From Planctomycetota bacterium (lineage in GTDB: Bacteria > Planctomycetota > UBA8742 > UBA2392): DNA of 64,000 nt. Where the stretch lies: the NCBI GenBank assembly GCA_020638675.1, contig JACKID010000001.1, positions 1,518,225 to 1,582,224 of the forward strand, given 5' to 3'. The position numbers are program-made. Positions 15,001 to 18,000 of this stretch are shown piece by piece; position 1 is the stretch's first letter; each line of letters opens with the position of its first letter.

Positions 15001-18000
15001 CAGGGGCGCCAAGGCGATCGTTGCCGGGCACGTTCACACACCGTTCTCGCGCGACTTCGTTGCCGGCGAGCGCGTGGGGCGCCTGTTCGTGACGAGCGAC
15101 TGGCGCATGAACGGCGCAGTCGTGTGCGTGGTCAAAGACGGCGAGTTCAAGCTGATGCACTTTGACGGCGAAGACTTCGCGCCGTTCGAAGCCCCCGAAA
15201 AGCAGGGGATCTACTCACTAGAGATGGCGAGATGAGTACGGAAGACCTGATCGAGATTATTGATGCGCTCGGCAAGCCGAAGCTGGCCGTGGTGGGGGAC
15301 CTGATCCTCGACCACTACGTGTTCGGCGCCGTGTCGCGAATCAGCCCGGAAGCCCCCATCCCGGTACTGCACGTCTCGCGCGAAGAGGACCGCCTAGGTG
15401 GTGCTGCCAACGTTGCCGCAAACATCCTGAGCCTCGGCGGCAAGGCCGCCCTGGTGGGCGCAATCGGGCGTGATGAGCCGGGTACACGCTTTCGCAAGCT
15501 GGCGGCGCGCTCGCGCGGGTTGACTCTCGACGCGTCGCAGTCGGGCAGCCGTCCGACGGTTCTCAAGACGCGCATGGTCAGCCAGAACCAGCAGATGCTG
15601 CGCGTTGACCGCGAAGAGCCCGGCGCCCTGGCCGAATCGGAACTCAAGGACGTTTCGGCAAAGGCGCTCAAGGCGCTGGCGGGCGTTGGAGCGTTGGTGA
15701 TCAGCGACTACGGCAAGGGCGTGATTACCCCCGACAGCGCACAGGCGCTGATATCCAGGGCGCGCCAGTCCGGCGTGCCCGTGATTGTGGACCCCAAGGG
15801 GCGCGACTACTCACGCTACAAGGGCGCCACGGCCGTGACCCCGAACCGCGCCGAAGCAGAGGCGGCGACGGGCATTGATTGTGCAACGATGGAAGGCGTC
15901 GAGGCCGCGGGGCGCAAACTGTGCCGTGAGCTGAAGCTGAAGGCTGCCGTCATTACCCTCAGCGCGCAGGGTGTCGCGGTGATTCCCGCACGTGGCAAAC
16001 TGGTGCACTTTCCGGCGCAGGCGCGCAGCGTGTACGACGTGACCGGCGCAGGTGACACGTTTATCGCGGCGTTCGCCATGTGTGTCGCGGGGGGTGCTGA
16101 GTTGAACACGGCCGCGCGAATCGCCAACTACTGCGCCGCACTGAAGGTCGCCCGTTTCGGCGCCGTCGCCATCACGCGGGAAGAGTTGCGGCGCAGCGTG
16201 ATCAGCGCGCATGAGGGCTTCGATCATGCGGGCAAGGTGATGACCCACGCCGAACTGGCCGAAGCGCTCGAGCCGCACCGCAAGCATGGTGAGCGCATCG
16301 TGTTCACGAACGGCTGCTTCGACCTGCTGCACCAGGGCCACGTGACGTACCTGAATTTCTGCCGCGGACAGGGCGACGTGGTGGTTGTGGGTCTCAACAG
16401 CGACGCCAGCGTGCGCCGACTGAAAGGCCCGACCCGCCCGGTGAATGAAGCCGAGGCGCGGGCGCGGGTGCTGGCGGCGCTGAACGACGTCGACTACGTG
16501 ACAGTGTTTGAAGAAGACACGCCGGACAGCCTGATCCGCAAGCTGCGCCCCGACGTGCTGGTGAAGGGCGAGGACTGGTCGGGCAAGAAGGTCGCGGGCG
16601 CATCGTTTGTGGAATCAACCGGCGGACGAGTGGTGTTTGCCCCGCTGGTGCAGGGCAAGAGCACCAGCAACATGATCGCCAAGGCGAAGTCAGAGAACAG
16701 GAGCCCGGAGCGCCAGCGACGGGCCGGCAAGCGCAAAAAGGCAAGGTCAGCGAAGTAAAGGAAGCTACGTGCCGAAGCAAAGAATCCTAAAGGAGTTCGT
16801 TGAGCAGCTCAACGCCAGCGCCGAACTGAAGCGCAAGCTGCTCGAGTCGCAGGGCGAGGTGATGGCCGACATCGCGATCGCCATTGTCGACGCGTTCCGC
16901 AATGGACATCGCGTGTACTGGTGCGGCAACGGCGGCAGCTTCACCGACGCGCACCACATCGTGGGCGAACTGGTCGGCAAGTATGGCTACGATCGTCCGC
17001 CGCTGCCTTCGTTTGTGCTGGGCGCGGGCGTCGCGGCCATGACGGCAATCGCCAACGACTACGGCTATGAGCACGTGTTCAGCCGCGAGGCCAAAGCCTG
17101 CCTGCAGGCCGGCGACGTGCTGGTCGGGCTTACCACCAGCGGCAACAGCAAGAATGTCTGCGACGCGATGGCGGTGGCGCAGGAAAAGGGCGCGCTAACG
17201 ATCGGATTGGCCGGCGAGAAGAAGGCGCGGGTGGATGAAGTCAGCGACCTCGTGCTTCACGTGCCAAGCACGCTCACGCCGCGCATCCAGGAGTGCCACA
17301 TCACAGTCGGCCACGTAATTTGCGACGTAGTAGAGAAGCACCTGTTCCCTCGAGATTCGGCTTGAACCGCCAAGACGCCGAGCCGCCAAGGATTTGAGAA
17401 TGCACGAGCCCGATTCGGACCTTGATGCATTGGCCAAGGCCGTTGTGGATGCTGCCTTTGCTGTGCACCAGTCTCTTGGGCCCGGATACCTCGAATCCGT
17501 GTATGAAGAAGCGCTGTGCGTTGAGCTTGAGCTCAGGAATATCGCGTACGAGTCACAGGTTCCGTTCCATGTGAAGTACCGCGGCCGGCGCGTCGGGGAA
17601 GGGCGGTTGGACCTCCTGGTGGGCGGGCGGCTGGTCGTCGAGCTGAAGGCTGTCGAGAGCCTTGCCCCAATCCACAAGGCGCAACTGATCAGCTACCTCA
17701 AGGCAACCGGCCACAGGCTTGGGTTGCTGATCAACTTCAATGTCGCTCTCATCAAGAACGGCATTCAGCGCATCATCCTTTCCTAGTTCTTGGTTCTTGG
17801 CGACTTGGCGTCTTGGCGGTTTGAAGAAATGGGAAGTGCACGCGAAGAGTTGATTGTGATCCAGAAGCGCCTCGTCGAGGAGCTGAAGGAGAACATCTAC
17901 GACACCGTCGGCCGTCGTGACGCCGCGCTGGACCGCTACTACAGGGACTACCAGCGCGAGTTCAAGCACGGCTACGAGCGTCTCTCCAGCCGCGACGAGT

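What the first reader, a model, noticed from the sequence alone, without database searches (positions are those of the whole stretch)
17362..17825. GxxExxY (PD-(D/E)XK-like) gene carried on a 454-bp cassette with 24-bp terminal inverted repeats and a 5-bp TTGAA direct duplication
The inverted ends (17367-17390 vs 17796-17819, 22/24 complementary) are themselves tandem octamers (CCGCCAAG ACGCCGAG CCGCCAAG). They lie immediately inside identical TTGAA pentamers at 17362-17366 and 17821-17825. TIRs plus a target-site duplication is the footprint of a transposed element. The only cargo is a 130-aa GxxExxY protein, a family known from 23S rRNA intervening sequences that shares the nuclease fold of restriction/homing endonucleases. 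The cassette sits between gmhA and a ChaN-like gene without disrupting either. This could be a minimal selfish element whose nuclease cargo drives its own mobility. Alternatively it is an RNase III-processed, IVS-like structure now in an mRNA context.
Basis: partly seen in the sequence, partly recalled or inferred. Interest (0 to 1): 0.8.

Follow-up and report, generated by a model that had tools for sequence, protein, structure and literature searches.

The report
Stem-bounded nuclease gene cassette in operon
A small nuclease gene sits between two housekeeping genes, enclosed by inverted arrays of short tandem repeats that flank this gene family across many bacterial phyla; the layout matches the ORF-carrying intervening sequences of 23S rRNA rather than an ordinary transposon.

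Summary
The inverted repeat is real: arms 17365-17390 and 17796-17821, 24 of 26 complementary, each made of three tandem CGCCAAG-type octamers, and unique in the window. It encloses a 128-aa PF13366/TIGR04256 GxxExxY protein whose model resembles the Cas4 nuclease core. The TTGAA "target-site duplication" does not hold. The left TTGAA is part of a family-wide terminus, (A/T)TGAAC|CRCNRAG. The right copy is not conserved in orthologues, and 47 elements show no flanking direct repeats above chance.

The repeat is a family trait. In 64 of 83 GxxExxY gene contexts from many phyla the gene has the same kind of arms, and the core heptamer changes in both arms together. Relatives show filled sites, empty sites, relic sites and a site holding a different GxxExxY cassette. 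Two Nostoc genomes show a cassette swap bounded by the termini.

The gene is inherited vertically (dN/dS 0.03-0.09). It was not found in phages and is almost absent from plasmids.

The window also holds a second cassette: a PF05635 "23S rRNA IVS protein" gene between murG and murC, flanked by inverted GTGGYCA heptamer arrays.

Best reading: an IVS-type, stem-bounded ORF cassette living in operon spacers. RNase III processing and the nuclease's role are inferred, not shown.

The parts
17363..17367 (+). Left terminus TGAAC. It also supplies the TGA stop codon of gmhA (17363-17365).
   Evidence: The terminus consensus (A/T)TGAAC precedes the first repeat unit on both sides of 47 elements. The gmhA ORF ends at 17365. 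The orthologue L003 has its own stop upstream and still carries TTGAACC.
17368..17390 (+). Left arm: three tandem units, CGCCAAG-a-CGCCGAG-c-CGCCAAG. The inner end overlaps the SD-like AAGGA (17388-17392).
   Evidence: The same unit type CRCNRAG is found in 57 other cassettes.
17400..17786 (+). GxxExxY gene: a 128-aa minimal PD-(D/E)XK (Cas4/RecB-like core) nuclease. Motif residues are E32, D71, E81-x-K83 and Q95xxxY99.
17789..17818 (+). Right arm: CTTGGTT (degenerate) plus three CTTGGCG units, the reverse complement of the left arm. It starts 2 nt after the TAG stop.
   Evidence: It pairs with the left arm in both the RNA and the DNA minimum-energy and centroid folds.
17819..17825 (+). Right terminus GTTTGAA, a degenerate form of the consensus GTTCA. 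It contains the second 'TTGAA'.
   Evidence: It is not conserved among orthologues.
16769..17365 (+). gmhA (phosphoheptose isomerase), the upstream host gene in the hldE-gmhA operon.
17829..19529 (+). ChaN-family gene, the downstream host gene.
   Evidence: PF04187. P0121 is 566 aa.
58747..58796 (-). Second cassette, 3' arm (on the minus strand): tandem TGGCCAC-type heptamers.
58800..59207 (-). Second cassette cargo: a four-helix-bundle protein of the '23S rRNA intervening sequence protein' family, lying between murG and murC.
   Evidence: PF05635 E 4e-40 and TIGR02436 E 2e-38. The orthologous cassette is at the same place in L151.
59232..59281 (-). Second cassette, 5' arm: tandem GTGGYCA heptamers (read on the minus strand).
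   Evidence: The same heptamer flanks related four-helix-bundle genes at other loci, L154 and L157.

Best explanation
This is an IVS-type, stem-bounded ORF cassette. It is an old, mostly vertically inherited selfish or commensal element made of a minimal Cas4-like PD-(D/E)XK nuclease gene enclosed by two inverted arrays of tandem 8-9-nt units, (A/T)TGAAC-(CRCNRAG-N1-2)n. It sits in the transcribed spacer between gmhA and the ChaN gene.

Shown here: the arms are a conserved, family-wide property of GxxExxY genes. They change in concert on both sides and are far better conserved than synonymous sites. The cassette is present, absent, degraded or replaced at the same spacer in relatives. In two Nostoc genomes an exchange is bounded by the termini. 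The protein is under strong purifying selection.

Inferred: in the operon transcript the two arms pair into a duplex of about 26 bp. That duplex sequesters the cassette's own ribosome-binding site and is a substrate for RNase III, as was shown experimentally for the Coxiella 23S rRNA IVS, which has the same layout. Cutting there would release the cassette RNA and leave the flanking cistrons usable, so the insertion costs the host little. In effect it would be an intron that needs no ligation.

Also inferred: the nuclease, perhaps recognising its own repeat units or the hairpin or cruciform they form, maintains or spreads the cassette by break-induced gene conversion. Arm complementarity could be kept up by template switching between the arms.
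For: Inverted repeat and tandem units in the window.

Family-wide arms: 64 of 83 contexts score above the 99th percentile of geometry-matched controls. The arms are also present in Bacteroides and Sphingomonas homologues of 41-44% identity and in a homologue of 35% identity at L100.

Concerted change: the dominant heptamer is identical in both arms in 45 of 57 elements, against 9.3 expected by permutation. For the terminus plus outer unit, 90.5% of cells pair against 76.3% in shuffles, and 101 cells change on both sides against 35.5.

Constraint on the arms: they are 66-91% identical among orthologues whose synonymous sites differ at 61-75%.

Presence or absence and replacement.

Protein: purifying selection and a Cas4-like fold with an intact catalytic motif.

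Long-range stem: it is present in the RNA and DNA minimum-energy and centroid folds, z about -3.1 and -3.3. No promoter-like or terminator-like sites lie around it.

Same architecture with an unrelated cargo: the second cassette in this window and the Coxiella IVS. The latter has a 28-bp TIR stem, tandem GACAGAT heptamers before the ORF, and RNase III cutting inside the stem that removes the SD (PMC4990558).

Position: cassettes repeatedly sit between cistrons of housekeeping operons, namely fabD|fabG, trkH|trkA, murG|murC and radA.
Against: No RNA data exist, so RNase III processing here rests only on analogy. Arm mismatches show no sense-strand G:U preference (78 G:U against 77 A:C), and in the outer unit G:U pairs are rare. 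An RNA-only constraint would predict the opposite. RNase III does not need the strong sequence conservation seen in the units (CRCNRAG) or the cargo-specific unit types, so something sequence-specific is still unexplained. The four-helix-bundle cassettes have the same layout without a nuclease, so the nuclease cannot be a general engine for the class. No GxxExxY gene was found inside an rRNA gene (0 of 75 loci). The promoter and terminator scan uses an E. coli-type consensus and says little for Planctomycetota.
Confidence: 0.5

Rival explanations
1. REPIN-RAYT-like system. The GxxExxY nuclease is a single-copy resident enzyme that maintains or disseminates a population of gene-less hairpins built from the same tandem units. 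The copy flanking the gene is the 'master' pair.
For: Gene-less hairpins with the same units, loops 9-180 nt, are common around GxxExxY genes in other genomes. The gene is single-context and vertically inherited. It gave no match in phages and is nearly absent from plasmids, as reported for RAYTs (PMC3116915). Paralogous cassettes in one genome carry different unit types (L017, L023/L027). Protein similarity tracks unit type: 25 of 45 nearest neighbours share the type against 8.3 expected.
Against: No gene-less CGCCAAG hairpin occurs in the 64-kb window. A hydrolytic PD-(D/E)XK nuclease has no known strand-transfer chemistry. Proteins 79% identical can have different unit types. The test for matching types between hairpins and the resident gene was underpowered (4 cases). 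The association is confounded by common descent.
Confidence: 0.2
2. Free-standing homing endonuclease gene. The nuclease cuts cassette-less alleles of the gmhA-ChaN spacer or a nearby conserved sequence. Repair from a filled allele copies the cassette in, and the arms are incidental.
For: The cargo has a nuclease fold with intact catalytic residues. It lies between conserved genes. Presence and absence vary among close relatives, including the closest one (L095, ChaN 88% identical, empty). A different GxxExxY cassette sits at the same spacer in L100 and L101. A cassette was swapped between near-identical Nostoc flanks. Proteins are 65-70% identical across phyla.
Against: The arms are conserved family-wide and under constraint, so they are not incidental. 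Co-divergence with the neighbours indicates long vertical descent. The gene was not found in phages and is nearly absent from plasmids, the usual vehicles. The four-helix-bundle cassettes share the layout without a nuclease.
Confidence: 0.15
3. One reading: a classical cut-and-paste or replicative TIR element that transposed here, leaving a 5-bp TTGAA target-site duplication, with the nuclease acting as its transposase.
For: Terminal inverted repeats are present and TTGAA occurs on both sides. Empty sites exist in relatives.
Against: The left TTGAA is part of the conserved terminus. The right copy is not conserved in orthologues. Flanking direct repeats are at chance for k = 2-6 in 47 elements. 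An identical protein was always found in the same genomic context. There is no second copy in the window. The gene is absent from the phage collection and nearly absent from plasmids. No protein with known strand-transfer chemistry is encoded.
Confidence: 0.04
4. Host regulatory hairpin with a domesticated gene. The arms are an STRR-like or REP-like intercistronic stem that stabilises or uncouples the operon mRNA, and the nuclease is an ordinary host repair enzyme that happens to reside in the loop.
For: Other tandem-repeat hairpins without any gene occupy the same spacer in relatives (L099, L103). Cyanobacterial 7-bp STRR hairpins between cistrons are proposed to affect transcript stability (PMC2670836). 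The gene is under strong purifying selection.
Against: It does not explain why this one gene family carries the same arm motif in unrelated loci and phyla. It also does not explain loss or replacement at a locus, or why several paralogues per genome have distinct arms.
Confidence: 0.1

Closest known systems
ORF-containing 23S rRNA intervening sequences (Coxiella burnetii, Leptospira; S23p / PF05635 cargo)
   Same: A small ORF of about 125-135 aa lies in the loop of a long stem formed by terminal inverted repeats of about 26-28 bp. Short tandem repeats of variable copy number (heptamers in Coxiella) lie between the stem and the start codon. The SD sits in or next to the stem. Inheritance is vertical with sporadic presence. 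The element sits in a highly transcribed unit where cutting without religation is tolerated (PMC4990558). The window itself carries a PF05635 cassette of this layout.
   Different: The host site is an mRNA operon spacer, not helix 45 of 23S rRNA. The cargo is a nuclease of an unrelated family. The arm units (CRCNRAG) and terminus (TGAAC) are conserved across phyla. RNase III cleavage is untested here.
REPIN-RAYT systems
   Same: The gene is flanked by inverted copies of a short repeat that also occurs as gene-less hairpin doublets. It is single-copy, chromosomal and vertically inherited. Distinct paralogues carry distinct repeat flavours (PMC3116915).
   Different: The enzyme is a PD-(D/E)XK hydrolase, not a Y1 (HUH) transposase. 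The arms are tandem arrays that are not palindromic on their own. No hairpin population is seen in this window.
Cas4 / RecB-family nuclease core
   Different: The protein is only 128 aa and has a single cysteine, so there is no Fe-S cluster module. No helicase or Cas partner was identified among its immediate neighbours. It does not reach any PADLOC model.
MITEs / Correia-type elements and cyanobacterial STRR hairpins
   Same: They are short inverted-repeat elements in intergenic, co-transcribed positions that form RNA hairpins. STRRs are 7-bp tandem repeats that form hairpins between cistrons (PMC2670836).
   Different: Here the full-length form carries a conserved protein gene. There is no target-site duplication. 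The unit sequence is tied to the cargo family.
Free-standing homing endonuclease genes of phages (from general knowledge)
   Same: A small nuclease gene is wedged between conserved genes, with presence/absence polymorphism.
   Different: It is bounded by conserved inverted repeats, lives in bacterial chromosomes, and gave no match in 50,697 phage records.

Membership tests
PF13366 PDDEXK_3 / TIGR04256 GxxExxY | Profile match above the curated cut-off | tested here: met
   140.4 bits against a cut-off of 22; 142.4 bits against a cut-off of 35
PF13366 PDDEXK_3 / TIGR04256 GxxExxY | GxxExxY motif and the PD-(D/E)XK catalytic residues | tested here: met
   G29-Y-L-E32-S-V-Y35. D71, E81, K83 and Q95 are invariant and Y99 nearly invariant in 38 sequences.
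PD-(D/E)XK / Cas4-RecB fold | Restriction-endonuclease-like alpha/beta core | tested here: met
Cas4 proper | Four-cysteine Fe-S cluster module and CRISPR-cas neighbourhood | tested here: not met
   The protein is 128 aa with one cysteine. Its neighbours are gmhA and a ChaN-family gene.
TIR DNA transposon / IS | Terminal inverted repeats | tested here: met
   26 nt, 92% complementary
TIR DNA transposon / IS | Target-site duplication | tested here: not met
   Not conserved in orthologues. No excess of flanking direct repeats in 47 elements.
TIR DNA transposon / IS | Encoded transposase with strand-transfer chemistry | tested here: not met
   The only ORF is a PD-(D/E)XK hydrolase.
TIR DNA transposon / IS | Several near-identical copies at different sites | tested here: not met
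   One copy in the window. The identical protein P0049 is in one context in 19 contigs. The whole genome was not available.
23S rRNA IVS with ORF | ORF enclosed by a terminal inverted-repeat stem, with short tandem repeats next to the start | tested here: met
   compared with PMC4990558
23S rRNA IVS with ORF | Located in a 23S rRNA helix | tested here: not met
   It lies between gmhA and the ChaN gene. None of 75 GxxExxY loci has an LSU rRNA match.
23S rRNA IVS with ORF | PF05635 (S23p) cargo | tested here: not met
   The cargo is PF13366. PF05635 is the cargo of the second cassette at 58800-59207.
23S rRNA IVS with ORF | Excision by RNase III within the stem | not testable with these tools
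   Needs RNA end mapping, wild type against an rnc mutant.
REPIN-RAYT | Y1/HUH RAYT transposase | tested here: not met
   The Pfam and NCBIfam hits are PDDEXK_3 / GxxExxY only.
REPIN-RAYT | Gene flanked by inverted copies of a repeat that is dispersed as gene-less hairpins | tested here: inconclusive
   Such hairpins are seen near homologues in other genomes. None is in this 64-kb window.
Homing endonuclease gene | Cleaves the cassette-less allele | not testable with these tools
   Empty alleles are identified (L095, L096, L102), but activity is unknown.
Integron cassette | attC hairpin 3' of the ORF, arrays next to an integrase | tested here: not met
   The repeat halves lie on opposite sides of the ORF. 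There is no array and no adjacent integrase ORF.

The most novel reading that the evidence does not exclude
GxxExxY and four-helix-bundle cassettes together form a widespread, undescribed class of 'stem-bounded' genetic elements. In this reading each cargo protein recognises its own short tandem-repeat code: CRCNRAG octamers or nonamers for the nuclease, GTGGYCA-type heptamers for the Avd-like bundle. The minimal Cas4-like nuclease would copy cassettes into, or maintain, matching gene-less hairpins by break-induced gene conversion. That would be a homing mechanism aimed at palindromic repeats, and it would also be the origin of ORF-bearing rRNA intervening sequences and of STRR-type hairpins.
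Probability: 0.22. Interest if true: 0.85.

Novelty: new variant of a known kind. Interest (0 to 1): 0.66.

Why it matters
GxxExxY (PF13366) and the four-helix-bundle 'IVS protein' (PF05635) are two very large bacterial protein families. The library searches found no functional description of GxxExxY, and the Coxiella IVS paper says S23p-family (PF05635) proteins have no known function.

This analysis shows that GxxExxY genes come as discrete cassettes with conserved, covarying, cargo-specific inverted tandem-repeat arms. The four-helix-bundle genes examined here have the same layout. That layout is also the one known from ORF-bearing rRNA intervening sequences.

Together this gives both families a concrete genetic context. 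It links three old puzzles: the origin of IVSs, short tandem-repeat hairpins between cistrons, and these orphan families. It also yields directly testable predictions: RNase III ends in the arms, and nuclease activity on arm DNA or hairpins.

Practically, gene callers often translate the arms as false N- or C-terminal extensions (MNRQDAK..., ...LGVLAVL), which can be corrected.

Tried and rejected
1. Target-site duplication: rejected.
2. Sense-strand RNA wobble bias in arm mismatches: none, 78 against 77. RNA-level selection is therefore not demonstrated.
3. Orientation relative to neighbours: 68-78% co-directional. That is about what ordinary operon structure gives, so it is uninformative.
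4. Mirror-image heterogeneity of units between arms: single cases look striking (L061, L031), but the global test is not significant (0.46 against 0.36, p = 0.17). Not claimed.
5. Matching of unit type between gene-less hairpins and the resident gene: only 4 usable cases, so no conclusion.
6. Known RNA families: no Rfam match to the cassette.
7. Defence-system and phage protein libraries: no PADLOC or PHROGs hit.
8. PDB by sequence: no hit.
9. Literature: no paper holds the repeat sequences, and only 3 papers mention GxxExxY, none about its context.
10. Recent mobility: the identical protein P0049 in 19 contigs is always in one context.
11. A clean insertion junction: the L095 empty spacer (69 nt) is unrelated to the window's residual spacer, so exact ends could not be defined.
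12. Integron-cassette, CRISPR and toxin-antitoxin readings were considered and dropped, because no attC, integrase, repeat array or adjacent partner gene is present.
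Full report
**1. The observation.**
The window comes from a Planctomycetota MAG. The identical protein P0001 is recorded on a 3.09-Mb NCBI contig.

At 17365-17390 and 17796-17821 there is a 26-nt inverted repeat, 92% complementary, with 405 nt between the arms. 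The 24-mer is found only at these two places in 64 kb, with none expected by chance.

Each arm is a tandem array:
- left: CGCCAAG / CGCCGAG / CGCCAAG
- right: three CTTGGCG units plus a degenerate CTTGGTT

The enclosed ORF (17400-17786, 128 aa) is PF13366 PDDEXK_3 and TIGR04256 GxxExxY. Upstream lie hldE and gmhA. Downstream lies a ChaN-family gene starting at 17829.

The two TTGAA pentamers exist, but they overlap the inverted repeat. The gmhA stop codon (TGA, 17363-65) lies inside the left one.

**2. The arms are a property of the gene family, not of this insertion.**
The first clue came from a protein alignment. Gene callers give distant homologues N-terminal extensions 'MNRQDAK...' and C-terminal 'LGVLAVL', which are translations of AACCGCCAAGACGCCAAG and CTTGGCGTCTTGGCGGTT.

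I then fetched 80 GxxExxY loci from GTDB species genomes covering many phyla: Cyanobacteria, Planctomycetota, Chloroflexota, Myxococcota, Verrucomicrobiota, Acidobacteriota, Bacteroidota and Proteobacteria.
- In 64 of 83 distinct gene contexts, the best inverted repeat between the 130 nt upstream and the 130 nt downstream exceeds the 99th percentile of geometry-matched controls. The gene median is 17 and the control maximum is 11.
- The arms have one design: (A/T)TGAAC, then 2-5 units of CRCNRAG spaced by 1-2 nt, and the reverse complement after the stop codon.
- The design holds in homologues of 41-44% identity in Bacteroides and Sphingomonas and in one of 35% identity (L100).

The heptamer differs between elements (CGCCAAG, CGCAGAG, CACAAAG, CGCGAAG, CACCAAG, CACGAAG and others), but both arms change together.
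- The dominant heptamer is identical in both arms in 45 of 57 elements, against 9.3 expected.
- For the terminus plus the outer unit, 90.5% of cells pair against 76.3% in shuffles.
- Cells changed on both sides number 101 against 35.5, and 0 of 500 shuffles reach that.
- The caveat is that related sequences inflate such counts.

**3. No target-site duplication.**
The left TTGAA is part of the conserved terminus. In orthologous cassettes the right-hand sequence reads ttcgaa, ttcatag or ttggaa. Across 47 elements, flanking direct repeats of 2-6 nt are at chance level.

**4. History at this locus.**
The state of the gmhA-ChaN spacer differs among relatives:

| State of the spacer | Loci (ChaN identity to the window where measured) |
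|---|---|
| Orthologous cassette present (protein 75-83% identical) | L003-L012, L013, L014 |
| Empty | L095 (88%, the closest full-length relative found), L096 (67%), L102 (50%) |
| Left-arm relic, no gene | L098 (53%) |
| Gene-less hairpin of other tandem units | L099 (GGTGGCT units), L103 (AAGTCCC units) |
| A different GxxExxY gene (35% identical) with its own CGCAAAG/CGCCAAA arms | L100, L101 |

However, the empty spacers are not alignable with the window's residual spacer, so exact ends cannot be read.

Among the filled orthologues:
- The gene co-diverges with its neighbours.
- dN/dS is 0.03-0.09, with synonymous sites near saturation (pS 0.61-0.75).
- The arms remain 66-91% identical, so they are under constraint.

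**5. Evidence for exchange, and against frequent jumping.**
In Nostocales the same intergenic site carries a cassette in many genera, with different heptamer types. Two Nostoc genomes, L073 and L087, have flanks 95-100% identical. Their identity collapses exactly inside ACGAACCGC...GCGGTTCGT. Both arms switch type, and the 5' half of the gene is far more diverged than the 3' half. This is a cassette exchange or gene conversion bounded by the termini.

Several results argue against frequent jumping:
- An identical protein found in 19 contigs is always in one context.
- tblastn finds the family in only 6 of 72,556 plasmid records.
- The two plasmid records I inspected look chromosome-like: radA|GxxExxY and fabD|GxxExxY|fabG.
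- None of 50,697 phage records has a match.

**6. RNA or DNA?**
Both RNA and DNA folding place the two arms in a long terminal stem, in the minimum-energy and the centroid structures (z -3.1 and -3.3). The stem takes in the SD-like AAGGA. No E. coli-type promoter or terminator pattern is nearby, which is consistent with co-transcription.

However, arm mismatches show no sense-strand G:U preference (78 against 77). G:U pairs are also rare in the outer unit. Selection on the RNA alone is therefore not demonstrated.

In cyanobacteria some elements carry large nested insertions mirrored in both arms (L025: 81 of 83 matched). This points to a templated, DNA-level homogenisation of the arms, such as template switching in quasi-palindromes. 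That mechanism is an inference from general knowledge.

**7. The protein.**

**8. A second cassette in the same window, and the link to IVSs.**
An inverted repeat at 58747-58796 / 59232-59281 consists of about four tandem GTGGYCA heptamers per arm. It encloses a minus-strand gene (58800-59207) for a PF05635 / TIGR02436 four-helix-bundle protein, the '23S rRNA intervening sequence protein' family. It lies between murG and murC.
- Its orthologue (76% identical) sits at the same place in L151.
- Related genes at other loci (L154; L157, between trkH and trkA) have the same heptamer arms.
- A distant one (L047) has other heptamers.

The published Coxiella 23S rRNA IVS has this same layout (PMC4990558):
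- a 28-bp terminal inverted-repeat stem
- tandem GACAGAT heptamers of variable number before the S23p start
- RNase III cutting inside the stem, which removes the SD

Cyanobacterial STRR hairpins of 7-bp repeats between cistrons are also on record, with function unknown (PMC2670836).

None of 75 GxxExxY loci scanned contains LSU rRNA. I therefore could not confirm that GxxExxY itself is an IVS family.

**9. Interpretation.**
The best-supported reading is an IVS-type, stem-bounded ORF cassette that lives in transcribed spacers of housekeeping operons. It is inherited vertically and is occasionally lost, degraded or replaced.

Three steps remain inferred: RNase III processing of the arm duplex, the nuclease's substrate, and how the arms are kept matched. 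The strong, cargo-specific sequence conservation of the units is not explained by RNase III. It suggests that the cargo protein, or another factor, reads the repeats.

REPIN-RAYT-like and homing-endonuclease models remain live rivals, or components of the answer. The classical transposon-with-duplication model is essentially excluded.

**10. Novelty.**
In the searchable literature I found no description of these arms, no Rfam family, and nothing on the genomic context of GxxExxY. Because the architecture is known for rRNA IVSs, I rate this a new variant of a known kind, not a categorically new one.

Noticed in passing
window 58747-59281 (minus strand): A second cassette of the same architecture. 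A PF05635/TIGR02436 four-helix-bundle ('23S rRNA IVS protein', Avd-like) gene lies between murG and murC, flanked by inverted arrays of about 4 tandem GTGGYCA heptamers (50-nt arms, 76% complementary).
   Followed up: yes
window 14346-14383: An array of TGGCCRC heptamers (TGGCCGC TGGCCAC TGGCCAG TGAGCAG) sits just upstream of the metallophosphatase gene that heads the hldE-gmhA cluster. It is the same unit type as the arms of the second cassette, with no clear inverted partner.
   Followed up: partly
window 63010-63056: Tandem 8-mers (GTCCAAG AGTACAAG AGCACAAA AGTACAAC) lie immediately before an ATG at about 63055. They look like a degenerate left arm of the CRCNRAG type. The downstream ORF was not examined.
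   Followed up: no
window 13028-13048: Three tandem GAACTCA/GAACTCC heptamers. Their context was not examined.
   Followed up: no
L157 1-3130: One operon carries both families: a PDDEXK_3 (GxxExxY) gene with a TTTTGTG...GTGGTTCGA right arm upstream of trkH, and a four-helix-bundle cassette with GTGGCCA arms between trkH and trkA.
   Followed up: partly
L025 2860-3480; L037; L039: In cyanobacterial cassettes both arms carry large nested insertions at mirrored positions (L025: 83-nt arms, 81 matched). This suggests that one arm is copied from the other, or that a small element targets the repeat unit.
   Followed up: partly
L099 1100-1207; L103 1890-2000: Relatives have gene-less hairpins built from other tandem units (GGTGGCT; AAGTCCC) in exactly the gmhA-ChaN spacer that holds the GxxExxY cassette in the window. 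The spacer is a recurrent home for such elements.
   Followed up: partly
L101 1140-2010: A partial tandem duplication: a 3' gene fragment with right arm and flank, followed by a complete left arm, gene and right arm.
   Followed up: no
L082 890-1670: In a Geobacteraceae MAG, a nuoE-like gene is bracketed by a gene-less CACAGAG hairpin upstream and a solo right arm downstream, inside the nuo operon.
   Followed up: partly
L018 665-806; L021 2629-2740: In two Anaerolineae genomes a glycine riboswitch lies 200-350 nt upstream of the GxxExxY cassette, so the cassette may sit in a riboswitch-controlled leader.
   Followed up: no
proteins P0021, P0029, P0035, P0036, P0054, P0055, P0089, P0109, P0120: Database proteins carry false N-terminal (MNRQDAK..., VNRRGAEDAE...) or C-terminal (...LGVLAVL) extensions that are translations of the arms. 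This is a systematic gene-calling artefact for the family.
   Followed up: yes
L061 3634-3926 (minus strand): An Rfam gathering-level match to the Helicobacter '5' ureB sRNA' (100 bits) in a Chthoniobacteraceae MAG. It probably reflects conserved ureB coding sequence and is unrelated to the cassette.
   Followed up: no
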